Shown piece by piece: positions 4,608 through 14,019 of a stretch of DNA of 64,000 bases (its first letter is position 1; every line of letters begins with the position of its first letter). The DNA comes from Bacillota bacterium (GTDB lineage Bacteria > Bacillota > Clostridia > Christensenellales > Aristaeellaceae). The DNA is taken from the NCBI GenBank assembly GCA_023411375.1, contig JAEYOW010000050.1, forward strand, positions 27,464 to 91,463, in the 5' to 3' direction. The notes under the pieces are model-generated. The model had not been told where the DNA came from. It saw only the letters and a program-made list of their open reading frames with translations, and searched no databases. The translations under genes were made by a program, and so were the position numbers.

Positions 4608-5279
4608 CTAGATAAAAAGACGCTTCTCCAGCTTTTCACGCAAGGTCGGGCTAAAGGCGAGCGTCAGCAGGAATGTGCCGACGGTCAGAAAGCACACCAT
4701 CACATAGGGGGACCATTGCAAGCCTTCTCCGCCAAAAGTGAAATGAAGAAGCGCCTCCAAAAGCAGCAGGAAAACGCCGACCATCATCCATGATCCACCG
4801 GAAATGGCAAGCGCATGCCGTGGATACCGCTTTACCAGAAACGTCAGCGCCTGCGAAAATAAATACAGCGTGAGAACAATTGGCAGTGCCAGAGTGAGAA
4901 ACCAGCGCCCGCCGGCGATCTGTTCGATCGCCCAGAGATATACGGCCAGCAGACCAAAGTTAAGGGCTCCTGACAGGCATTCCCTCGCCTTTGATACCAG
5001 CAGGGGAAAAATCACCCAGAAGTAAACAAGCACAACCGCGCCCATGACATATACCGACCAGCTCAAGCCGTTGTTTAGTGCCAGATCAGTCGCCAGCACC
5101 ACGGCAATTACATGCAGGCAAAGCGCTAAAAACAGCAGGTTTAAACGAGTTTTGCGGCGCAGCCGCCCGCGGCAGGGAGCGGGGGTTTCCGGCGCGGGCA
5201 TGGGATGAACCGGGGTTTCGCACAGCGGGCACCTGTCTGTTGATTTCATTAACTCCACGCCGCAATGGGCACAATACAT
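4608..5279 (-). CDS. Zinc-ribbon (CxxC...CxxC) N-terminal domain fused to a ~6-TM membrane domain
   Basis: MYCAHCGVELMKSTDRCPLCETPV followed by hydrophobic helices. The ATG at 5279 has GAGGTGA 6 nt upstream and lies 5 nt after the stop of the upstream gene; the GTG at 5288 overlaps that stop. Confidence 0.6.
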   Translation of the reverse strand: MYCAHCGVELMKSTDRCPLCETPVHPMPAPETPAPCRGRLRRKTRLNLLFLALCLHVIAVVLATDLALNNGLSWSVYVMGAVVLVYFWVIFPLLVSKARECLSGALNFGLLAVYLWAIEQIAGGRWFLTLALPIVLTLYLFSQALTFLVKRYPRHALAISGGSWMMVGVFLLLLEALLHFTFGGEGLQWSPYVMVCFLTVGTFLLTLAFSPTLREKLEKRLFI

Positions 5280-5284
5280 CAGCG

Positions 5285-6598
5285 TCACCTCATGTTGCTT
5301 TCCACGCCCGCCTCAAGCCCAAGCCCGCGCAAGACGTTATAAAACGCATATTCCAGCGTTGGTTCCTGGTAACACCGGCAAAACTGCATCCGCACCGTGG
5401 AGGCATAGGAAATCATCGCGCAGCTATTGGCTGATTGGGGATGAGCGTCCATCAGGCACCGAATGTCCCTTATGTATTCGCACATGACATCTGGAAGATC
5501 AATTTCGCCAAGATTTGAAAGGGACAGGCAGCAGTTTCCATTGCCAAAAAGCTGATATGCAGCTTTCATGGCCAGGTTTTTCAGAGGCAGAGGCAGCAGG
5601 CGAACGAGAAGCGAACGTTCGGTTCTGACATTGGTTGCGGCGCATGCGGCCATTTCCTTACGGGTAATGAGCGTGCCCATCTGACATCGAACGGATTGGC
5701 AGATTTCATCAAAATCCCATTCTCCCAGATTGGGATTGATGTTGGCTGTGGGGCACAGCGAGAAGTTCCGTAATGTTTGACTCGGATACAACCTGCGTAG
5801 ATTAACGGGAATGCCAATGGCAATCTCACGCTGCTTGGAACCGGACGCGCGATTTCGCTGGATTTGATAAAGCGCCTGCATCATGGCGGCGCACATAAGC
5901 CCAGTAAGCGTTACGCCGTGCGCCTTTGCGCATGAAAGTGCCTCTTTAAGGGAATATGATAAAATTGTATAAGTCAGGTATTTTTCTTTTGGAAGCGTGT
6001 CTTTTAACTGATAGGCTTTTACCTCGGATCGCTTTTGCGGCCATGGCCCGGCAAATTTGGGAAAACAATCCTCCAGCTCTTCCGCCTTTACCGGCTCGCG
6101 TCTGTCCAGAACGCCTTGCTCGCAGGGAATCGCGATGCCATATTTCTGTGTTAGATATTCTGCGAGAAGGGATTTAAAGAAGGTGATTGAACCGCTTCCG
6201 TCCGACACGGCGTGAAAAAACTCGAGCGACAGGGAAGGCCCGTCAACCAGCACGCGAAAGCCACATCTGCGGATTTCGCGAAAGGAGCGGTGCGTCAGAG
6301 GATAGGCCTTTTCAGCTTCAATGGGCGGTACGGCTACCGTAGGCTCAAAGTAATACCAGAACAGGCCCCGGTGCAATGTGACGGCAATGGACGGAAAGCG
6401 CGGCATGGTGATAGCCAGGGCAGATCTCAAAATGTCCGAATCGACGTTTTCACTCAACGTTGCCGTCCAACGGTATTGATGGTTCTGCGTCCGAGAATAG
6501 GTTGCCGGGTAAATCTTTGCGGCGTTATCAAGCTTAAACCAGGTTCTCTGAGGCGAGGGGGCTAACGGCGCCCGCCCGTTTTCTGCTTCCTCTTTCAT
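5285..6598 (-). CDS. HxxxD-motif acyltransferase of the condensation / alcohol-acetyltransferase (WS-DGAT/PapA5-like) superfamily
   Basis: FFHAVSDGSG (HxxxDG catalytic motif) about 150 aa from the N-terminus, and N-terminal WFKLDNAAKIYPA. Start trimmed to the ATG at 6598 (MKEEAENGR...), which has GGAG in CGAAGGAGAAGAGAG upstream. Confidence 0.65.
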   Translation of the reverse strand: MKEEAENGRAPLAPSPQRTWFKLDNAAKIYPATYSRTQNHQYRWTATLSENVDSDILRSALAITMPRFPSIAVTLHRGLFWYYFEPTVAVPPIEAEKAYPLTHRSFREIRRCGFRVLVDGPSLSLEFFHAVSDGSGSITFFKSLLAEYLTQKYGIAIPCEQGVLDRREPVKAEELEDCFPKFAGPWPQKRSEVKAYQLKDTLPKEKYLTYTILSYSLKEALSCAKAHGVTLTGLMCAAMMQALYQIQRNRASGSKQREIAIGIPVNLRRLYPSQTLRNFSLCPTANINPNLGEWDFDEICQSVRCQMGTLITRKEMAACAATNVRTERSLLVRLLPLPLKNLAMKAAYQLFGNGNCCLSLSNLGEIDLPDVMCEYIRDIRCLMDAHPQSANSCAMISYASTVRMQFCRCYQEPTLEYAFYNVLRGLGLEAGVESNMR

Positions 6599-6845
6599 CT
6601 CTCTTCTCCTTCGCATAAGCCCATATTCATCTGACTCAATCAAAATTGAGAACTGGCAGGATGGCGTGTCCGGCAACCGCTGGGGCATGACGGTCCAACC
6701 CTTATACTGTCAATGGCTGATGCGCATGATCAAATCAACGATTTCCTTTATGCCCTTCTCAGTCATCAGGTCGCTGGCTACGGACAGAATATGCAGCCGC
6801 GTATCCGCCCGCGACTTGACGCCGCTCTCCTCTTTTCCATCCTGT

Positions 6846-6905
6846 CCGCTCATCTGTCTGCCTCCAATCGGTCAACCGACCGAATGGAGGCAGACAGATG
6901 AGCGG
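6846..6905. repeat. Perfect 21-bp inverted repeat (CCGCTCATCTGTCTGCCTCCA / TGGAGGCAGACAGATGAGCGG) with an 18-nt loop that itself holds a TCGGTC/GACCGA palindrome
   Basis: Read directly: arms 6846-6866 and 6885-6905. Each arm carries GGAGG followed 8 nt later by ATG when read outward. Not followed by a U-run on either strand. Confidence 0.9.
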
Positions 6906-7053
6906 ACAATCGTCGCGCGATTCTCAACACAAATTTGCCGGCAAAATAGCATGAGCATCAAGAATGTCAAAAAACCGCAACCCACCAAAAATCATGGGTT
7001 TACGGCTTTTCTACTGCGCCTATCATACCATAAAAAGGATGAAAAGTCAAGTC

Positions 7054-7082
7054 TTGCATCCACCACGCAGGGCGCGTATACT
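7054..7082 (+). promoter_or_regulatory. sigmaA-like promoter TTGCAT-17-TATACT for the 7104 operon
   Basis: TTGCAT 7054-7059 and TATACT 7077-7082, placing the start site about 15 nt before the ATG. The GGAGGTG SD is at 7091-7097. Confidence 0.4.
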
Positions 7083-7103
7083 GCGAAACCGGAGGTGGTT
7101 TTA

Positions 7104-7574
7104 ATGGAAAACCGCATGGAAATACGGCCTGCTGCGCTTCAACTGGCGGCGGCCGGGAATGAGCTAGCCGCAAGTAACTCGCTTTCTCAACGCTATGGCC
7201 TGTCGCTTACGGACGCTGAAATTCAGACGCTGGCGGAGTGCCGCGCTTCCGCTTTGCGCGACACTGGGCGCGTAGAGTTTGGCGGCGGTGTGCTGCCCGT
7301 ATTGATCTACGCGTTTTGCGATTCGCCCTACCTGACGCGTGAAAACTACCTGGATACGTTGATAGAATTGCAGGACTCTTTTTATTATTTCAAGAATGAA
7401 TCAGCAGGTTGGTTGTCGGACGACGAGCTGATCGAAGCGATGAGGGATGTGTTTAACGGCGTGGCGCAGGGCTCGCTTGATTATCTGGCAGGAACCTCTC
7501 TGGAGGAGCTGTGCCGCGATGCGCGGGCAGGCCGGGGCCTGATACGCGCAGACGCGCCCGAGGGCTGGAAGTGA
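7104..7574 (+). CDS. Uncharacterized conserved protein, 156 aa, first gene of a coupled triplet
   Basis: ATG at 7104 with SD GGAGGTG; the 5' part of track ORF 6666..7574 has no RBS and overlaps the intergenic IR. The stop TGA at 7572-7574 overlaps a GTG at 7571. Confidence 0.65.
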   Translation: MENRMEIRPAALQLAAAGNELAASNSLSQRYGLSLTDAEIQTLAECRASALRDTGRVEFGGGVLPVLIYAFCDSPYLTRENYLDTLIELQDSFYYFKNESAGWLSDDELIEAMRDVFNGVAQGSLDYLAGTSLEELCRDARAGRGLIRADAPEGWK

Positions 7575-7597
7575 CGCGCGCCGTGAACGGAACGGAT

Positions 7598-8524
7598 ATG
7601 ACCGTTCCGGCGCAGGACACCCTTGCTTGGGAGGCGCTGGACGCGCAGGAGGCACAAAAGGTACAGGCCAGACTGGGGCGGCTGCTTGCCCGGCACGTTG
7701 CGCGCTATACCATGGGGGATAGCTCGTCCATTCCGATGGAGACCGCTCAGGAACTGCTCGCTTCCATCTGCTACACGCTGAATGCCGCATTGGCGGAAAA
7801 TGATGATGGGCCGCGCGGGCTGCTTGCGGGAGAGGGTCTGGAAGAACTTTTTGCAAAGGGATATGAAGTGCTGGAGCGGCATGTGCGGGAAGGACAAAAG
7901 CTTTGGATTGCCTCGCTGGAAGGGATGCCGGCCATCGAAAGCCGTTCCCTTCATGATACGCTCAGGGGGATAGGTTCCTTCTTTGACCGGTATGACCTTC
8001 GGTTTTTCGCGCACGAAATCCCCTGTGACCATATCGACTACCAGCTTTGCCGGCCAGTGCCGGATACGCTTTTGGGCATTGCGTACGTGAACGAATACCT
8101 GCGCCGGGTCATTGTGGAAAACAGCGTGCTGGGCGCGTTTCGCCCCGAACTTGCCGCCGGGCTGCTCAAAGGCTATTGCCCGGACTACGAAGATCTGCTG
8201 GTCAATCTTTGCGAGCCTGTGGCGGCCTGTGCGATCGGGCTGGTGCTGGCCGGCGGCGAGCCGTTTTCACTCAATCTGACGGACATGCAAAGGCGGTTGC
8301 TCATGGAACGGCTTGCGGATATGGACGGGGATAGGGCGCGGACCGTTCTGGCATGCGCTGCCCGGCGTTTCTGCGGGCTGGCGGGTATTGCGGACGCGTT
8401 TGCCCAAAGTTATCTAGAACGCGTCGCGCGCGACCTGTATCCGCGTATCCGGGCGGCGCTGTCCACCGGCAGCCTGGAGGGAATTTTTCAAACGTTACCA
8501 ATGGAAGGAGCGGAACGATCATGA
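7598..8524 (+). CDS. Uncharacterized conserved protein, ~309 aa (318 aa if it starts at the GTG at 7571 overlapping the upstream stop)
   Basis: Long ORF with no recognized domain. Cys motifs HEIPCDHIDYQLC and GYCPDYEDLLVNLCEPVAAC. Its stop overlaps the next gene's ATG (ATGA at 8521-8524). Confidence 0.6.
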   Translation: MTVPAQDTLAWEALDAQEAQKVQARLGRLLARHVARYTMGDSSSIPMETAQELLASICYTLNAALAENDDGPRGLLAGEGLEELFAKGYEVLERHVREGQKLWIASLEGMPAIESRSLHDTLRGIGSFFDRYDLRFFAHEIPCDHIDYQLCRPVPDTLLGIAYVNEYLRRVIVENSVLGAFRPELAAGLLKGYCPDYEDLLVNLCEPVAACAIGLVLAGGEPFSLNLTDMQRRLLMERLADMDGDRARTVLACAARRFCGLAGIADAFAQSYLERVARDLYPRIRAALSTGSLEGIFQTLPMEGAERS

Positions 8525-8949
8525 ATATTTTGATCAGCGCATGCCTGCTGGGCGTGCGTTGCCGGTACGATGGCGGGGGAAAGGCAATTGGGCGCCTGAA
8601 TGAACTGATGCAAAAGCATACGCTGATCCCCGTATGCCCCGAGGTGTTCGGAGGCCTGCCCACGCCCAGGGAGCCTTCAGAAATCAGGGGCGGACGCGTC
8701 CTGTCAAGGAGCGGTCGGGACGTTACGGAGAACTTCAGGCGCGGTGCGGACGAAGCGCTTGGCCTGGCACGGCTTTATCACTGTGAATGCGCCTTGCTCA
8801 AGGAAAGAAGCCCGTCGTGCGGCTATGGCCGGATCTATGACGGAAGCTTTACAGGCGGGCTTTGCAAGGGCGAGGGCGTATGCGCGGCGCTGCTTGCCCA
8901 AAACGGCGTGGTGGTTTTGGGCGAGTCGCGCGTGGCGGAGCTTCTATAA
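8521..8949 (+). CDS. DUF523 / TudS-like [4Fe-4S] protein (thiouracil desulfidase family)
   Basis: MNILISACLLGVRCRYDGGGK...LIPVCPEVFGGLPTPREP...LLKERSPSCGYGRIYDGSF shows the Cys pattern typical of DUF523. SD GGAAGGAG lies 9 nt upstream of the ATG at 8521. Confidence 0.7.
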   Translation: MNILISACLLGVRCRYDGGGKAIGRLNELMQKHTLIPVCPEVFGGLPTPREPSEIRGGRVLSRSGRDVTENFRRGADEALGLARLYHCECALLKERSPSCGYGRIYDGSFTGGLCKGEGVCAALLAQNGVVVLGESRVAELL

Positions 8950-9102
8950 GCTGACGACCGGTCATTGCAACAATACGCTACCGGGTTTTATTCTTGGGTT
9001 CGGCTATTTGGGTGACCTAATGTTTTTTACCGACTCTGGCAACGCCTGCCGCTCAAAAGCTTCCACGGACCCTTGCGTCATGGCGTTTATATGCCGGCAT
9101 AC

Positions 9103-9135
9103 AAAAAGACCGCGCCATTTAGCGCGGCCTTTTTG
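9103..9135. terminator. Bidirectional intrinsic terminator
   Basis: aaaaaGACCGCGCC-attta-GCGCGGCC-ttttt between the convergent DUF523 gene (+) and the SH3b gene (-). Confidence 0.7.
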
Positions 9136-9148
9136 TGGAAAACCCAAA

Positions 9149-10105
9149 TTACTTTACAACGGTGAAGAAGTAACGGCTCACGTAGCCTTCCACGCCGTCG
9201 ATCTCAGCCTTGCACCAGACGTCGCCCACGGAGGTCACCTTGATTTCGGTGCCGACGGGGTACGCCTTGATGATGGAACTGTTCAGACCAGGGGCGGTGC
9301 GGAAGTTCACAATGCGGTTGCCGTTGGGGTTCACGAGCTTGGCCGTGAAGGGAGCCTCAGGCAACGTGCTGGAACCGTTGTCACCGGAGCCGGCGGTTAC
9401 CTTGATGAACTTCTTCATCATGTAGCCGTTCTTGCCGCCGACCGTCACCTTGTAGAAGCTGCCGCTCTCGCCGCGCAGCGTCACATCGGTGCCGTTCTTG
9501 AAATAGCCGATTACGCGGGCATCGGTGCTGGGGGTCTCACGGAGGAGAAGCACCTGGTTCGCGCCGGGGTTGTTGACAACGCCCTGCTTGGGATAGCCCG
9601 TGGTGGAGTCGCCGCCATTGCCGCCGCCCTGCGAGGAGGAGCTCAGGTAACGGCTGTTCATGTAGCCGAGCTGCTCGCCGATCTGCACCTTGTACCAGCC
9701 GTTGCCGCGCAGCAGGACGGTTACCGCCGTGCCGGTCTTATAGCTGGTAATGATGTTACCTTCCAGGGAAGGCTGATCGCGCAGGTTGAGGCCGGCGCCG
9801 GTGTTGGTGCGCACATAAAGCGTGCTGTCGGAAGACGAGGAGGAGAGGTACTTGTTCATCACATAACCTTCCTTGCCGTCAACCTTCACCTTGTGCCATT
9901 CGGCGCCTTCCTCAGTGACGGTCATCCAGGTGCCGGTGGGATACTGCCCGAGCACTTCGCTGGTCAGCGAAGGCTCCTTGCGCAGGTTGAGCGATCCGCC
10001 CTTGACCACCATCATGGTCTCGGCCAGGGATACCAGGGGCAGCGCCAACACCAGCAGCAGGGCGAACACCCGGAGGCATCTTTTGTATAGATGGGTCTTT
10101 TGCAT
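9149..10105 (-). CDS. Secreted protein with four tandem bacterial SH3 (SH3b/SH3_3) domains
   Basis: Signal peptide MQKTHLYKRCLRVFALLLVLALPLVSLA, then four ~70-aa repeats each ending ...G(W/F)YKV...GY(V/M). ATG at 10105 with AGGAGG immediately upstream. The opposing 448-aa + ORF is a low-complexity antisense artifact. Confidence 0.8.
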   Translation of the reverse strand: MQKTHLYKRCLRVFALLLVLALPLVSLAETMMVVKGGSLNLRKEPSLTSEVLGQYPTGTWMTVTEEGAEWHKVKVDGKEGYVMNKYLSSSSSDSTLYVRTNTGAGLNLRDQPSLEGNIITSYKTGTAVTVLLRGNGWYKVQIGEQLGYMNSRYLSSSSQGGGNGGDSTTGYPKQGVVNNPGANQVLLLRETPSTDARVIGYFKNGTDVTLRGESGSFYKVTVGGKNGYMMKKFIKVTAGSGDNGSSTLPEAPFTAKLVNPNGNRIVNFRTAPGLNSSIIKAYPVGTEIKVTSVGDVWCKAEIDGVEGYVSRYFFTVVK

Positions 10106-10313
10106 AAGGGGATACCTCCTTTTTGATATTGGCAAGGGGTTTCCCCTCGCCGTTCTCCCATCAGACGAATGGGGAAGGGCTTCCCTTGCGGAACTCCAAT
10201 CAATATTCTGGCTAATTGATGGTCATAATGGAACAACATGGTAGATAAATGGAAAATATAGTGGGCTTTCACACTGGAAAACATCGAAAAATCATACAAT
10301 TCAAAATCTGAGG

Positions 10314-10943
10314 ATGGATGAATTTGGCAGGCTTTTTCCGCGAAAATTGGGGGATAAAATCGGCCGCTTGCCGGTTTTGGTAAGCATTGTTTGCGGCTTG
10401 GCACGGTTGACGGGGCAAGCTAGCGGTACGCCGATGGACAGGGAGGGTGCGACGGTGCTGACGAGTCTGCAAAGAATGGTTGGGTTGCCCGTGGTATGGC
10501 AGGACCGGCAAATCGGCTGTGTGGAACGCGCCGTGCCGAACGCGGGCGCAAGAAAACTCAGCGGCGTGGTGATCCGCCGCGGGCTTGGCAGCGCAAAGTG
10601 GGTCGCGCCGGACGCCATCGTCATGGTGGGCGAGCGGTGCGTGCTGATCAACCGCAAGCCGGGCCACATGCCGGATGGAAAGGAATGCTCGCTGTCGCGG
10701 GCGTTTCTGACAACGGGCGAGTGCGTTGGCGAGGTGACGGACGCGGTGATTGCCGGCGCGACGCTCAGGCTTGTTGCGCTGGAGGTAAGCGGAGGACCGA
10801 TCTACCGTCTGCTCGGGCGGCGCGGCTACGCGGCGGACTACCGTGTTCGCGGCGCGGAAGGTAAGGCGGGTGAGGTGGTTGTGCCCAAGCTGTTGACATG
10901 GGCGGAGCTGGAGAGGTTGCTTGGAGAGGAGGACGACGGATGA
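10314..10943 (+). CDS. PRC-barrel domain protein (YlmC/YmxH-like fold, duplicated)
   Basis: LQRMVGLPVVWQDRQIGCVERAV...VIRRG...WVAPDAIVMVGERCVLI is PRC-barrel like, and a second partial repeat follows. The start is uncertain; the ATG at 10434 is the alternative. Confidence 0.5.
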   Translation: MDEFGRLFPRKLGDKIGRLPVLVSIVCGLARLTGQASGTPMDREGATVLTSLQRMVGLPVVWQDRQIGCVERAVPNAGARKLSGVVIRRGLGSAKWVAPDAIVMVGERCVLINRKPGHMPDGKECSLSRAFLTTGECVGEVTDAVIAGATLRLVALEVSGGPIYRLLGRRGYAADYRVRGAEGKAGEVVVPKLLTWAELERLLGEEDDG

Positions 10944-11083
10944 GCATGCTGAAAACCGCTATGGCGGGGGCGATTGGCTTTGCGGTTGGCGCGAGCGCCA
11001 TGCTGCTGCCTGGCAATCAGAAGATGAAGCGTCAGGCGCAAAAGCAGGTGGATAAGCTGATAAAAATGTCGAAAATGTGGTAA
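10940..11083 (+). CDS. Small (47 aa) single-helix membrane peptide
   Basis: MSMLKTAMAGAIGFAVGASAMLLPGNQKMKRQAQKQVDKLIKMSKMW. The ATG overlaps the upstream stop (ATGA) and has SD GGAGAGGAGG 8 nt upstream. Confidence 0.4.
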   Translation: MSMLKTAMAGAIGFAVGASAMLLPGNQKMKRQAQKQVDKLIKMSKMW

Positions 11084-11100
11084 TGCCGGTGGCGAGCAAG

Positions 11101-11134
11101 GCGCGGGGAAAATTCCCCGCCCTTTCCCGCTTTC
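11101..11134 (+). terminator. Hairpin GCGGGGAA-aatt-CCCCGC followed by a CCTTTCCCGCTTTC U-rich tract
   Basis: Directly downstream of the small peptide gene. Confidence 0.4.
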
Positions 11135-11261
11135 TAGTATAGCCGGGAGGATGGGGCATTAGCCCCGACAGGCGACCGAAATTTAACGTTTGCGCCGAAA
11201 AATTCGTATAGCCTTGACGCGGTGGCAAGCCGAGCCAGGGCCGACAAGGAGGAAGCAAACC

Positions 11262-12311
11262 ATGCAGGCCAAGGAGAGAAGTCAACCGCGCCTGCGCTGG
11301 CAGATCGTTGCGGCAGTGGCGGCGGCGGCTGTGCTGATATGGGCGCGGGAACTGCTGTGGCAGGCCATATTACAGCTCTTTTTTGGGTTGCTCGTCGCCA
11401 TGGCAGCCCTGCCGGTGATGAGGCTTCTGGAAAAAAAGCTATCGCCCGGCCTGGCGGCTTCGCTTGCAATGATGAGCCTAAGTCTTTCCTTAATTCTATC
11501 GCTTCTGCTGCTAATCCCTCCGATTATGGCGCAGGGCAAGCAGCTGGTGGGTATGCTGCCGGCACTGTACGCGCGCATAGACGAATGGGTTGGATTGGGC
11601 CAGGCATGGCTGGTGGAAAATGGCGTTCCTGTGGATGAAGGGATGAAATCCTCACTGTTTGAAAAAGGGCAGGAGCTTCTTTCAGGCGCGGCGCCGTCGG
11701 TGATGGCATGGGTGAGGGGCGCGGCCGGCAGCGTTGGCAAATGGATGCTGGCGCCCGTCTTTGCCTACTATTTTCTGCGAGACCGAAAAAGGATTGGGGA
11801 GTGGCTTTTGATGCTGGTCCCCATCAGCAAGCGGGGTCTTACCATTAAGCTGCTACGGGAAATGCGAAGGGAAACAGCCGGCTATCTGCGCGGCCAGCTG
11901 ATGGTATCCGCCGTGGTGGGCGGCCTTACGGCGGTCGGCCTGCTGTTTTGCGGCGTACCGGCTTGGCTGCTGCTGGGTCTGCTCATGGGAGTCTTGGAGC
12001 TTATTCCATATGTGGGTCCATTTCTTGGCGGCGTCATCGTCGTTCTTTTTTCACTGCAAGGCGGCTTGTCGCGCACCCTGTGGGCCCTGGGTGTGGTGAT
12101 TCTGGTTCAGCAGCTGGAGGGCGGTATGCTGTCTCCTCAGCTGATGAGCGACGCGACGCGCCTGCATCCGGTGGCTGTTTTGCTGTGTGTGATGATTGGC
12201 GGCGCGGCGGGCGGGATGGGCGGCATTTTGCTGTCGGTACCGCTTCTGCTGTGCATGCGCGCGGCGCTCAGGGTAATCGGCCTTTACCACGCGCAGGAAG
12301 GGAAAACATAA
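11262..12311 (+). CDS. AI-2E family transporter (PerM/YhhT/TqsA-like)
   Basis: Eight TM helices and the conserved ...[21 protein letters not shown]... region. ATG at 11262 with AAGGAGGAAG upstream. Confidence 0.85.
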
Positions 12312-12361
12312 GCGGTTTTTGCATGAATGCGGTTTCCCTGCCGGCTAATCCCAATAAACGC

Positions 12362-12390
12362 TTTGCAAAGTATAATATTTGGTGTATAAT
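12362..12390 (+). promoter_or_regulatory. sigmaA promoter TTTGCA-17-TGTATAAT for ireB-ruvX-DUF1292-GNAT
   Basis: Read directly at 12362-12390. Confidence 0.5.
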
Positions 12391-12424
12391 ATTATCTGTA
12401 TCACCTCAAGGGAGGGACGCACCC

Positions 12425-12685
12425 ATGACGGAAATGAACGGAACGACGAAGTTTTCGCCCATTGTGGAAGGAGATCGCGACGCCAGCGCGATTCTTTCGC
12501 ATGTTTACCGCGCGCTGCAAGCCAAGGGATATGACCCCGTCACCCAACTGGTAGGGTATCTCATTTCGGGCGACCCAACGTATATTACCAGCTACGGCCA
12601 GGCGCGCAGCATGATTTGCCGTCTGGAGCGCGACGAGATCATGGAGGAGCTCGTGCGGGTCTACCTGCAGGGGCTTGACGGCTGA
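12425..12685 (+). CDS. ireB: IreB/UPF0297 (YrzL-like) regulatory phosphoprotein
   Basis: 86-aa protein [56 protein letters not shown]...; the UPF0297 family conventionally precedes ruvX. Its stop overlaps the ruvX ATG. Confidence 0.8.
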
Positions 12686-13110
12686 TGGCCGAAGAAGCGG
12701 GACGGATTATCGCGCTGGATGTGGGGGATGTGCGCATCGGCGTGGCAGTGAGCGACCCCGCGGGAATCATCGCGCAGCCGGTGGAGGTTTACAAGCGCGT
12801 GGGGTATACGCCTGACTGCAAATACGTACTGAGCCTTTGCCAGCGGTTTGACACCCGGCGCGTGCTTCTTGGCCTGCCGTTGAACATGGATGGAACCAGG
12901 GGCGCGCAGGCTCAAAAGGCATTGGATTTTGGCGGCGTGTTGGAAAACGCGGGCCTCCGGGTATACTATCAGGACGAGCGCATGACCACCATGACGGCCG
13001 AGGACGTGCTTATCAGCGGGAATGTGCGCCGTGAGGACCGCAGACGCTATGTCGACAAGGTGGCTGCGACTGTCATATTGGAACAATGGCTGGCCTCGGG
13101 CGGCAAATAA
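12685..13110 (+). CDS. ruvX: Holliday junction resolvase-like RNase RuvX (YqgF)
   Basis: IIALDVGDVRIGVAVSDPAGIIAQP...LPLNMDGT...MTTMTAE; RNase H-fold YqgF signature. Confidence 0.9.
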   Translation: MAEEAGRIIALDVGDVRIGVAVSDPAGIIAQPVEVYKRVGYTPDCKYVLSLCQRFDTRRVLLGLPLNMDGTRGAQAQKALDFGGVLENAGLRVYYQDERMTTMTAEDVLISGNVRREDRRRYVDKVAATVILEQWLASGGK

Positions 13111-13137
13111 TCCCCGGCCGGCGGAAAGAGGAACGAC

Positions 13138-13464
13138 ATGGAAGACGGCAATCTGGTGCAGCTTCAGGATGAAAACGGAAAAGACGTGAATTTTGAGCAT
13201 CTTATGACGGTTGAGCATGAGGGCTCCTATTATGTGGTGCTTGAAGCCACGGAGGATATGGACGACTGCAAGGAAGGCGAAGCCATCATCCTCAAAATTG
13301 TGCGCGACGAAAAGAGCGGCGAGGATGTTTACGCCACCATCGAGGACGAGGCGGAGTTTAACACCGTGTTTGACAAATGCATGGCCGCCATGGAAGAGGA
13401 AGAGGAAGACGAGGCGGCGGCGCTGGAGCTTGAGGCTATCGACCTGGATGGGGACGAGGAGTAG
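13138..13464 (+). CDS. DUF1292 family protein (YrzB-like) with acidic tail
   Basis: LVQLQDENGKDVNFEHLMTVEHEGSYYVVLEA...; the conserved position after ruvX. Confidence 0.8.
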   Translation: MEDGNLVQLQDENGKDVNFEHLMTVEHEGSYYVVLEATEDMDDCKEGEAIILKIVRDEKSGEDVYATIEDEAEFNTVFDKCMAAMEEEEEDEAAALELEAIDLDGDEE

Positions 13465-13467
13465 GCC

Positions 13468-14019
13468 ATGCCAAGAGTAACAGGCGAGCGAGTGATGCTG
13501 CGCGAATACAGGGCGGAGGACATCGGGGATATCCGCAAGTGGGTCAACGATCCTGTGACAACCCGATATCTGTCCACCCGCTTTTGGCCTGCCCAGACCA
13601 TGGTGGACTCGGAGGAGTTTCTGAGCCGTATGCTTCAAAGCAGCCATAACGCCTATAACTTTGTTATCGCTGATTTAAAGGACGAGCGCTATATCGGTCA
13701 GCTGGATATGTTCCGGGTGGACTGGCGGCTGCGCTGCGGCGAGCTGGGTATGGTAATCGGCGATGCGGGCGACCGCGGACGCGGCATCGGCAGGGAAGCC
13801 CTGCTTCTGATGCAGGATTTTGCGTTTCGAACGCTCGGGATGGAACGGCTGGAGCTTGAGGTTCATATGGAAAACCAGGCTGCCCGGCAGTGCTATCAGA
13901 ATGCGGGCTTCTTTCTGGAGGGCGTCAAGCGCCATGCGTTTTTCAGCGAGGGCAAGTTTTGCGACGTCGGCATTCTTAGCGTATTGCGCGAAGAATATGA
14001 ACAGCAGTGCAATGCGTGA
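13468..14019 (+). CDS. GNAT family N-acetyltransferase (RimJ/RimL-like)
   Basis: VMLREYRAEDIGDIRKWVNDPVTTRYL...GMVIGDAGDRGRGIGREALLLMQDFAF; acetyl-CoA-binding motif Q/RxxGxG/A. Confidence 0.8.
   Translation: MPRVTGERVMLREYRAEDIGDIRKWVNDPVTTRYLSTRFWPAQTMVDSEEFLSRMLQSSHNAYNFVIADLKDERYIGQLDMFRVDWRLRCGELGMVIGDAGDRGRGIGREALLLMQDFAFRTLGMERLELEVHMENQAARQCYQNAGFFLEGVKRHAFFSEGKFCDVGILSVLREEYEQQCNA

What the first reader, a model, noticed from the sequence alone, without database searches (positions are those of the whole stretch)
7054..8949. Translationally coupled three-gene operon: two uncharacterized proteins fused by overlapping stop/start codons to a DUF523/TudS-like Fe-S desulfidase
The genes at 7104-7574 (156 aa), 7571/7598-8524 (~310 aa, with motifs HEIPCDHIDYQLC and GYCPDY...LCEPVAAC) and 8521-8949 (DUF523, the TudS thiouracil-desulfidase family) are tightly linked. 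Their stop and start codons overlap (GTGA at 7571-7574, ATGA at 8521-8524). A consensus-like promoter (TTGCAT-17-TATACT) sits just upstream. I know of DUF523/TudS mainly with DUF1722 or pyrimidine-salvage genes, so this pairing with two unknown proteins suggests an undescribed thiolated-nucleobase or other sulfur-handling pathway. Tight coupling implies a stoichiometric complex.
Basis: partly seen in the sequence, partly recalled or inferred. Interest (0 to 1): 0.72.

Follow-up and report, generated by a model that had tools for sequence, protein, structure and literature searches.

The report
Conserved gene pair with hitch-hiking TudS
The three overlapping genes are real, but only the first two (DUF6323 and DUF6179, function unknown) form a conserved unit; the TudS desulfidase became their neighbour through a rearrangement in this lineage, so nothing points to a new sulfur pathway.

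Summary
Genes 7104-7574, 7571-8524 and 8521-8949 overlap by GTGA and ATGA, with a promoter-like site upstream and a terminator at 9110-9137.

The two "unknown" proteins are Pfam DUF6323 and DUF6179. They are adjacent, in the same order, in 45 of 46 genome or plasmid loci, from Clostridia to Enterococcus. TudS never follows DUF6179 in 80 other loci.

In the closest TudS relatives the gene sits behind pyruvate kinase. It heads the same downstream block (SH3, PRC, AI-2E, IreB, RuvX) as in the window. So DUF6323-DUF6179 was placed next to an ancestral TudS.

One unexpected result: the promoter lies in a ~95-bp cassette that is almost invariant across families. The same cassette precedes LCM-type methyltransferase and HflX genes. 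Its best sigma-A match points away from the genes, into a hairpin. The function of the pair remains unknown.

The parts
6969..7012 (.). A-run, hairpin and T-run (bidirectional terminator-like element) directly upstream of the conserved cassette block
   Evidence: One search finds a terminator on the - strand (stem 7000-6979, tail GCGGTTTTTT). The + strand carries CTTTTCT after the stem. An equivalent hairpin with a T-run occurs at 86 of 111 non-redundant sites, and an A-run precedes it at 73 of 111.
7020..7058 (.). Conserved cassette block: CTATCATACCATAAA-N-GTCAAGTCTTGCA (family consensus TTATATTACCACAAAA-N7-AAATTTCAAGnCTTGTA)
   Evidence: The weight-matrix score is 35.3 and this is the only hit in the 64-kb window. 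The block precedes DUF6323 in most species.
7022..7050 (-). Sigma-A-type promoter match pointing away from the operon: TTGACT, 17 nt, TATGAT, with a TG extension
   Evidence: scores it 10 of 12 with TG present. The family consensus is TTGAAA-N17(TGTGG)-TAATAT. TG is present at 111 of 111 sites, and a pyrimidine-purine start lies 7 nt after the -10 at 105 of 111.
7054..7082 (+).
   Evidence: Read from the sequence. A constant 17-nt spacing between TTGTAn and a TAnnnn box is seen across species. The match to consensus is weak: only 17 of 111 sites pass the scan criteria.
7091..7095 (+). Shine-Dalgarno sequence GGAGG for gene A
   Evidence: Read from the sequence. A GGAGG-like box sits at the same place in other loci.
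7104..7574 (+). Gene A: DUF6323 protein, 156 aa, acidic (pI 4.4), six helices
   Evidence: Pfam PF19848, E 2e-45. AlphaFold2 pLDDT 83. pI. 1569 homologues found.
7571..8524 (+). Gene B: DUF6179 protein, 317 aa from GTG 7571 (308 aa from ATG 7598), all-helical
   Evidence: Pfam PF19677, E 8e-64. AlphaFold2 pLDDT 93.6, twelve helices. About 2580 clusters at 50% identity in the exhaustive search.
8521..8949 (+). Gene C: stand-alone TudS ([4Fe-4S] thiouracil / 4-thio-UMP desulfidase family), 142 aa
   Evidence: Pfam PF04463, E 2.5e-44. Match to PDB 6Z92 TudS at E 1e-34, with Cys8/39/100, Glu41, Ser97/99 and Arg15 aligned to the functional residues.
9110..9137 (+). Terminator-like hairpin and T-run that closes the operon
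   Evidence: CCGCGCCATTTAGCGCGG followed by CCTTTTTGTG.

Best explanation
The locus joins two units of different age.

(1) DUF6323 (A) and DUF6179 (B) form an old, obligate two-gene module of Bacillota. Both proteins are soluble, acidic and all-helical. They most likely work as a heteromeric complex (inferred). Their biochemical activity is unknown.

(2) TudS (C) is an ordinary stand-alone thiouracil / 4-thio-UMP desulfidase. It ancestrally heads the SH3-PRC-AI-2E-IreB-RuvX block and is normally transcribed from whatever lies upstream, which is pyruvate kinase in relatives.

In this lineage a rearrangement placed A-B directly upstream of TudS. TudS is now read from the A-B transcript through an ATGA overlap. 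This is shown by synteny. That TudS still acts independently in thionucleotide salvage is inferred.

A-B is expressed from a weak sigma-A-type promoter. Its -35 box lies back to back with a stronger divergent promoter that fires into a hairpin. This cassette is nearly invariant across families and also precedes LCM-family methyltransferase and HflX genes.

My tentative reading is that A-B belongs to a small co-regulated stress set linked to translation, possibly to ribosome-targeting compounds. Control would come from promoter competition or an unidentified factor. This last step is inference only.
For: A-B pairing:
- A lies immediately upstream of B in 45 of 46 genome or plasmid loci. These come from Oscillospiraceae, Christensenellaceae, Lachnospiraceae, Eubacteriaceae, Clostridium butyricum and Enterococcus raffinosus.
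- Only A and B recur among neighbours in an all-against-all clustering.
- Upstream and downstream neighbours are heterogeneous.
- A candidate B start lies within 20 nt of the A stop in 71 of 89 non-redundant junctions.
- One natural A-B fusion protein exists, P0319.

TudS as a passenger:
- None of 80 loci has TudS downstream of B.
- The closest TudS homologues lie in the order NAGPA-LGT-Ogt-PK-TudS, followed by SH3(-)-PRC-47aa-AI-2E-IreB-RuvX-DUF1292. This is collinear with the window from 8521 onward.
- All TudS ligand and catalytic residues are kept.
- Stand-alone TudS salvages thiolated uracil derivatives (PMC10611767, PMC11417400).

Cassette:
- On two Clostridium plasmids it precedes an LCM methyltransferase followed by a Vat or CatB-type acetyltransferase.
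- It also precedes HflX.
Against: - No experiment or multimer model shows that A and B bind each other.
- Two species carry the cassette followed by B alone, without A in the contig.
- TudS lies within 6 kb of A-B in three species of different arrangement (the window, L031 and L043). This is more than a naive chance estimate of about 0.4-0.8% per genome would predict, so a loose functional affinity is not excluded.
- The translation or antibiotic theme rests on few cases: HflX in one species group and resistance-type acetyltransferases on two plasmids. Other genes downstream of the methyltransferase are unrelated.
- The metagenome pattern was derived from A-B sites, so the share of A-B among hits is biased upward.
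- No transcription start data exist for either promoter.
Confidence: 0.65

Rival explanations
1. One reading: A, B and TudS form one functional unit, a ternary complex or a new thionucleobase or sulfur-handling pathway, with A and B acting as accessory or substrate-delivery subunits of the desulfidase.
For: The stop and start codons overlap at both junctions and the three genes share one promoter and terminator. TudS lies within 6 kb of A-B in two further species, L031 and L043.
Against: - TudS is absent downstream of B in 80 of 80 other loci.
- In L031 it lies upstream of the cassette, outside the A-B transcription unit.
- TudS keeps its ancestral downstream synteny, and in relatives it is attached to pyruvate kinase instead.
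- The cysteines of B are not conserved.
- TudS enzymes are active on their own in published work (PMC10611767).
Confidence: 0.07
2. A-B is a toxin-antitoxin or anti-phage defence pair. It would be a small acidic neutraliser plus a larger effector that moves between genomic contexts.
For: It is a two-gene cassette with its own promoter in variable neighbourhoods. A is small and very acidic. The genes are tightly coupled.
Against: - No PADLOC match at E up to 1.
- No informative PHROGs match.
- No hit in 50,697 phage records.
- Plasmid hits are only on non-mobilizable megaplasmids of 0.7-2.6 Mb.
- A is highly conserved (mean column identity 54%), which fits vertical housekeeping-like descent.
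- The promoter cassette is shared with HflX and methyltransferase genes.
Confidence: 0.07
3. A and/or B is the regulator that recognises the conserved cassette. The pair would be autoregulated and would control the methyltransferase and HflX promoters.
Against: - Both proteins are acidic (pI 4.4 and about 5, net charge -12 to -15 for A).
- Neither has a Pfam DNA-binding domain.
- Nearly every conserved cassette position can be read as contacts of two back-to-back sigma-A promoters, so a dedicated DNA binder is not required.
Confidence: 0.1

Closest known systems
TudS, the stand-alone DUF523 [4Fe-4S] thiouracil / 4-thio-UMP desulfidase (PDB 6Z92-6Z96; PMC10611767)
   Same: Gene C matches over its full length (E 1e-34 to 6Z92). 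Cys8, Cys39 and Cys100 align to Cys10, Cys43 and Cys104. Glu41 aligns to Glu45, Ser97 and Ser99 to Ser101 and Ser103, and Arg15 to Arg17. It has a single domain of 142 aa, like the 59% of the family that is stand-alone.
   Different: Nothing in the protein itself differs. Only its operon position is unusual here: it is translationally coupled to DUF6179 rather than following pyruvate kinase as in relatives.
RudS, the TudS-DUF1722 fusion that removes s4U from tRNA (PMC11417400)
   Same: It shares the TudS catalytic domain.
   Different: Gene C has no DUF1722 domain (Pfam shows PF04463 only). Neither A nor B matches DUF1722. Published work shows that stand-alone TudS does not lower tRNA s4U.
Pfam DUF6323 (PF19848) and DUF6179 (PF19677)
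   Same: A and B are clear members (154 and 216 bits). NCBI names homologues 'DUF6323 family protein' and 'DUF6179 domain-containing protein'.
   Different: The families carry no function, and no paper in the searched library names them. This analysis adds four points: the obligate pairing, the fixed order, confident models with no structural relatives, and the shared promoter cassette.
Regulation by overlapping divergent promoters, such as the divergent RNA at E. coli crp; and the actinobacterial WhiB7 regulon (erm, hflX, acetyltransferases). Both are recalled from memory, as analogies only.
   Same: Two -35 boxes lie back to back 3 bp apart, so two polymerases should exclude each other. The gene set includes HflX, a methyltransferase and acetyltransferase neighbours.
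   Different: No transcript data exist, no regulator has been identified, and there is no homology to WhiB7 or CRP systems. The resemblance was not tested.

Membership tests
TudS / DUF523 (PF04463) | Profile match above the curated cut-off over the whole domain | tested here: met
   151.1 bits against a cut-off of 34.7; residues 3-135 match profile positions 1-139 of 141.
TudS / DUF523 (PF04463) | Three cysteines that bind the [4Fe-4S] cluster (TudS_A Cys10, Cys43, Cys104) | tested here: met
   Cys8, Cys39 and Cys100 align to them in the phmmer alignment to 6Z92. Residue roles are taken from PMC10611767.
TudS / DUF523 (PF04463) | Catalytic Glu45, Ser101 and Ser103, and the phosphate-binding Arg17 | tested here: met
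   Glu41, Ser97, Ser99 and Arg15 are aligned and identical.
TudS / DUF523 (PF04463) | Bound [4Fe-4S] cluster and desulfidase activity on 4-thiouracil or 4-thio-UMP | not testable with these tools
   This needs anaerobic purification, or complementation of an E. coli pyrF mutant on thiouracil.
RudS (TudS-DUF1722 fusion) | C-terminal DUF1722 domain | tested here: not met
   Gene C is 142 aa and matches PF04463 only.
DUF6323 (PF19848) | Profile match above the cut-off | tested here: met
   154.1 bits against a cut-off of 30.6.
DUF6179 (PF19677) | Profile match above the cut-off | tested here: met
   215.9 bits against a cut-off of 25.
DUF6323-DUF6179 gene pair (defined in this analysis) | DUF6323 immediately upstream of DUF6179 on the same strand | tested here: met
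   This holds in the window, in 45 of 46 genome or plasmid loci, and in 56 metagenome loci that contain both genes.
Cysteine-ligated metal or Fe-S protein (implied for B by the quoted motifs) | Conserved cysteine ligands | tested here: not met
   No cysteine is invariant or nearly invariant in 38- and 96-sequence alignments. The conserved residues are Thr121, Tyr132, Asp147, Tyr148, Gly160, Tyr167, Glu174 and others.
Known anti-phage defence or toxin-antitoxin systems (PADLOC-DB) | Match to any defence-system protein model | tested here: not met
   No families matched A, B or C at E up to 1.
Rfam cis-regulatory RNAs (riboswitch or leader upstream of A) | Covariance-model match at the gathering score | tested here: not met
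   No match in the window. None upstream of A in 11 other loci.

The most novel reading that the evidence does not exclude
The DUF6323-DUF6179 pair, together with LCM-type methyltransferase and HflX genes, may be controlled by an undescribed regulatory cassette. The cassette has a strong divergent sigma-A promoter that fires into an adjacent hairpin and makes only a ~45-nt RNA. Its -35 box overlaps, back to back, that of the weak gene-proximal promoter. The arrangement is kept almost base for base from Clostridia to Enterococcus. If so, the pair would be the core member of a new stress regulon, possibly responding to ribosome-targeting compounds. The two proteins, which have no structural relatives, would be its unknown effector.
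Probability: 0.25. Interest if true: 0.65.

Novelty: new member of a known kind. Interest (0 to 1): 0.38.

Why it matters
As submitted, the finding does not open a new sulfur or thionucleotide pathway. TudS here is an ordinary salvage enzyme in an unusual operon position. This is a useful caution that overlapping stop and start codons can arise quickly after a rearrangement and do not prove a complex.

What remains of value is a sharper definition of an uncharacterised module. Two catalogued DUFs turn out to be one obligate pair spread through gut Clostridia and some enterococci. Their models are confident and have no structural relatives. An unusually conserved promoter-terminator cassette links the pair to HflX and a methyltransferase family.

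This gives experimenters a concrete handle. Cultured carriers exist: Pseudoflavonifractor phocaeensis, Lawsonibacter hominis, Papillibacter cinnamivorans, Clostridium butyricum and Enterococcus raffinosus.

Tried and rejected
- A genome scan with the single B protein found no relatives.
- The 38-sequence alignment was too diverse to give search patterns. An 8-sequence alignment worked.
- NCBIfam gave no match for A, B, C or the two upstream genes.
- PADLOC gave nothing. PHROGs matched only TudS, to families of unknown function.
- PDB sequence profiles gave no credible hit for A or B.
- Foldseek against viral structures gave nothing with E below 1.
- The AlphaFold-database library was not available.
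- Literature searches for the DUF names and for the motif as a text string gave nothing relevant.
- Rfam found no family in the window or upstream of A elsewhere.
- Phage records hold no B homologue.
- I checked whether the genes upstream of TudS in L171, which also overlap it, are divergent A and B. They are not.
- The Monoglobus plasmid copy of the cassette has no gene downstream.
- The Bacillus thuringiensis plasmid hits share only the first block, which is an ordinary extended -10.
- I compared the motif from memory with operators of known Firmicute regulators: CtsR, HrcA, Rex, CodY, NrdR, LexA, WalR, GntR/DasR-type, sigma-B, sigma-F and ECF promoters. None fits. The GGGTAT-like box resembles a sigma-B -10, but sigma-B is absent from Enterococcus and most Clostridia.
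- Genes downstream of the methyltransferase in metagenome loci show no common theme.
Full report
**1. What is there**

The + strand between 7054 and 9137 holds one compact transcription unit.
- Gene A runs from ATG 7104 to TGA 7574 and has a GGAGG box at 7091-7095.
- Gene B can start at GTG 7571, inside the stop of A (GTGA), with GAGGG six bases upstream. The alternative start is ATG 7598. The public gene call for the 99%-identical protein is 317 aa, which corresponds to the GTG start.
- B's stop at 8522-8524 overlaps the ATG of gene C at 8521 (ATGA). C ends at 8949.
- TTGCAT, 17 nt and TATACT lie at 7054-7082. A hairpin with a T-run lies at 9110-9137.

**2. What the three proteins are**

Pfam places A in DUF6323 (E 2e-45), B in DUF6179 (E 8e-64) and C in 2-thiour_desulf, the TudS family (E 2.5e-44). 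NCBIfam, PADLOC and PHROGs add nothing for A and B. No paper in the searched library names either DUF.

C aligns over its full length to crystallised TudS (PDB 6Z92, E 1e-34).
- The three cluster cysteines are kept: Cys8, Cys39 and Cys100 align to Cys10, Cys43 and Cys104.
- The catalytic residues are kept: Glu41, Ser97 and Ser99 align to Glu45, Ser101 and Ser103.
- The phosphate-binding Arg15 aligns to Arg17. Residue roles come from PMC10611767.
- C has no DUF1722 domain. It is therefore a stand-alone TudS, the majority form, which salvages thiolated uracil compounds. It is not the tRNA-acting RudS (PMC11417400).

**3. Is the triplet conserved? No. The pair is.**

I scanned one genome per species with a B alignment and obtained 44 loci. 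They come from Oscillospiraceae, Christensenellaceae, Lachnospiraceae, Eubacteriaceae, Papillibacter, Lawsonibacter, Pseudoflavonifractor and Acetivibrio.
- Profile searches of all six frames find A immediately upstream of B, on the same strand, in 45 of 46 genome or plasmid loci. This count includes the Clostridium butyricum and Enterococcus raffinosus megaplasmids, where B is only 24-29% identical.
- All-against-all clustering of every ORF in these loci recovers only A and B as recurring neighbours.
- Pfam scans of the flanking genes show unrelated families on either strand.
- TudS appears within the fetched flanks only twice. In L031 it lies directly upstream of A. In L043 it lies 2.2 kb upstream.
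- In 116 further metagenome loci TudS never appears. Of 80 loci with at least 600 nt downstream of B, none has TudS there.

**4. Why TudS is here**

I looked at the question from the TudS side.
- Its closest homologues outside the species (67-70% identity) sit in the order NAGPA-LGT-Ogt-pyruvate kinase-TudS.
- They are followed by a four-SH3 protein on the opposite strand, then a PRC-barrel protein, a 47-aa ORF, an AI-2E transporter, IreB, RuvX and DUF1292.
- That downstream run is the same as in the window and in same-species contigs, and it is collinear by tblastx.

TudS is thus the ancestral head of that block. It is normally the last gene of whatever operon lies upstream, about 20 nt after pyruvate kinase in relatives. 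In the window's lineage a breakpoint just upstream of TudS brought in A-B, and the junction has become an ATGA overlap.

This explains the coupling without any shared function. The caveat is that three species with TudS within 6 kb of A-B exceed a naive chance estimate. A loose affinity cannot be excluded.

**5. What can be said about A and B**

- B has about 2580 clusters at 50% identity in an exhaustive profile search.
- Invariant or nearly invariant residues of B are polar or aromatic: Ser42, Glu48, Thr121, Tyr132, Asp133, His139, Asp147, Tyr148, Tyr167, Glu174, Asn203, Glu206 and Arg283. Many lie in a long, confidently modelled loop at residues 132-159. None is a cysteine. The quoted Cys motifs are therefore not a metal site.
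- The AlphaFold2 models are confident: B has pLDDT 93.6 and twelve helices, A has pLDDT 83 and six helices.
- Both proteins are acidic: A has pI 4.4 and net charge about -12 to -15; B has pI about 5. Neither has a membrane segment.
- A candidate B start lies within 20 nt of the A stop in 71 of 89 junctions.
- One database protein, P0319, is an A-B fusion.
- About a quarter of B homologues carry a further conserved extension of about 110 aa at the C-terminus, with no Pfam match.
- B has no homologue in phage records, and it occurs only on non-mobilizable megaplasmids.

I infer a soluble A-B complex. The chemistry remains unknown.

**6. The promoter is part of something larger**

I aligned the DNA upstream of A across species. 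A block is kept almost base for base although the proteins are only 35-60% identical. Its layout is:
- an A-run, a hairpin and a T-run;
- about 6 nt;
- TTATATTACCACAAAA;
- 7 nt;
- AAATTTCAAGnCTTGTA;
- 14 nt;
- GnnGTAT, then the Shine-Dalgarno box and the ATG.

The window copy lies at 6969-7095. It is the only one in the 64 kb. Enterococcus raffinosus has the block too. Rfam has no match.

I then scanned metagenomes for TTACCACAAA-N12-TCAAGNCTTGT. Of 93 non-redundant first downstream ORFs:
- 76 are DUF6323;
- about ten are LCM-family SAM methyltransferases (PF04072), from at least five species;
- one species group has HflX;
- one has a cytoplasmic histidine kinase;
- two species have B without A.

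On two Clostridium plasmids the cassette precedes such a methyltransferase, which is followed by a Vat streptogramin acetyltransferase or a CatB-related acetyltransferase. Elsewhere the genes after the methyltransferase are unrelated.

**7. Anatomy of the cassette**

Read on the opposite strand, the conserved bases form a Gram-positive-type extended promoter: TTGAAA, then 17 nt including TGTGG, then TAATAT. I measured 111 non-redundant sites.
- TG is present at all 111.
- A pyrimidine-purine start lies 7 nt after the -10 at 105.
- 72 pass the scan criteria on the reverse strand.
- Only 17 pass for the gene-proximal promoter (TTGTAa, 17 nt, TAnnnn).
- A hairpin followed by a T-run is present at 86. 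An A-run precedes it at 73.

The independent consensus scan finds the same reverse promoter in the window (7050-7022, 10 of 12, with TG). It also finds a reverse-strand terminator at 7000-6979. The two -35 boxes lie back to back 3 bp apart, which creates the CAAGnCTTG palindrome.

The strong promoter would therefore make only a ~45-nt RNA, and two polymerases should exclude each other. Whether this is promoter competition, a site for an unknown factor, or something else is not shown. I could not match it to any regulator motif I know, and no start-site data are available.

**8. Verdict**

The locus is a lineage-specific fusion of an ordinary TudS gene to a conserved DUF6323-DUF6179 pair of unknown function.

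The pair and its cassette are a reasonable lead. It may be a small regulon that also includes HflX and a methyltransferase. The functional theme rests on few cases and on no experiment.

Confidence:
- TudS is a passenger: about 0.8.
- A-B forms a complex: about 0.6.
- A role in translation or antibiotic stress: about 0.2.

Noticed in passing
window 6969-7095; also L005-L050 upstream of DUF6323, and L051-L166: A ~95-bp promoter-terminator cassette is nearly invariant across Clostridia families and Enterococcus. Its best sigma-A match points away from the genes, into a hairpin. The same cassette precedes LCM-family methyltransferase genes, HflX and one histidine kinase gene.
   Followed up: partly
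window about 6742-6748 (junction), compared with L001 6718-7160: Same-species contigs carry a 197-aa TetR-family gene divergent from gene A. It is the first gene of the minus-strand operon TetR / 437-aa protein / DUF6320. The window lacks 443 bp from inside this gene, so its TetR is internally deleted.
   Followed up: partly
window 6843-6908: A near-perfect inverted repeat has 31-nt arms, 97% complementarity and a 4-nt loop. It spans the ribosome-binding site and start codon of the deleted TetR gene. The mirrored arm creates an RBS and ATG for an 18-codon ORF on the + strand. It may be an operator or a cruciform; I did not investigate.
   Followed up: no
window 4608-6688, minus strand: The upstream operon encodes a 437-467-aa protein with only weak acyltransferase or condensation-like hits (PapA_C, AATase, Transferase). 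It also encodes a DUF6320 protein with an N-terminal zinc-ribbon-like motif and hydrophobic segments. This is a second uncharacterised pair.
   Followed up: no
L172 2218-4441; L174 2218-4441; window 8521-13900: In the closest relatives TudS follows pyruvate kinase by about 20 nt and heads the same SH3/PRC/AI-2E/IreB/RuvX/DUF1292 block as in the window. TudS seems to lack its own promoter and to be read from whichever operon lies upstream.
   Followed up: yes
L051, L076, L079, L091 (one species); L103, L125 (another): Here the cassette is followed directly by DUF6179, with no DUF6323 anywhere in the contig. B can therefore occur without an adjacent A.
   Followed up: partly
P0041, P0044, P0069, P0087, P0113 and others; L023, L027, L028, L043, L046: A long form of DUF6179 (400-450 aa) carries a conserved C-terminal extension of about 110 aa (motifs such as MDDExLRxLIDEI...CFW...TGWE). 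It has no Pfam match and is still preceded by DUF6323.
   Followed up: partly
P0319 (database protein, 406 aa): This single polypeptide has DUF6323 at residues 21-138 and DUF6179 at residues 148-403, and it lacks B's first ~40 residues. It is either a natural fusion or an assembly or deletion artefact. There is only one cluster.
   Followed up: partly
L175 3501-6520 (Clostridium tagluense pCM008-A); L177 3501-5509 (Clostridium sp. CM027 plasmid): In L175 the order is cassette, LCM-type methyltransferase, a 398-aa protein with no Pfam match, then a Vat streptogramin A acetyltransferase. In L177 the order is cassette, methyltransferase, then a CatB-related acetyltransferase. This hints at a link to ribosome-targeting antibiotics.
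   Followed up: partly
L100 8962-9000; L084 and L121 equivalents; L075 4353-4391: Second, weaker cassette-like sites (weight-matrix scores 21-31) lie near the main site. In the HflX loci one sits about 50 nt upstream of rpmE in inverted orientation. In L075 one sits just after a class-D beta-lactamase-like gene, pointing antisense to it.
   Followed up: no
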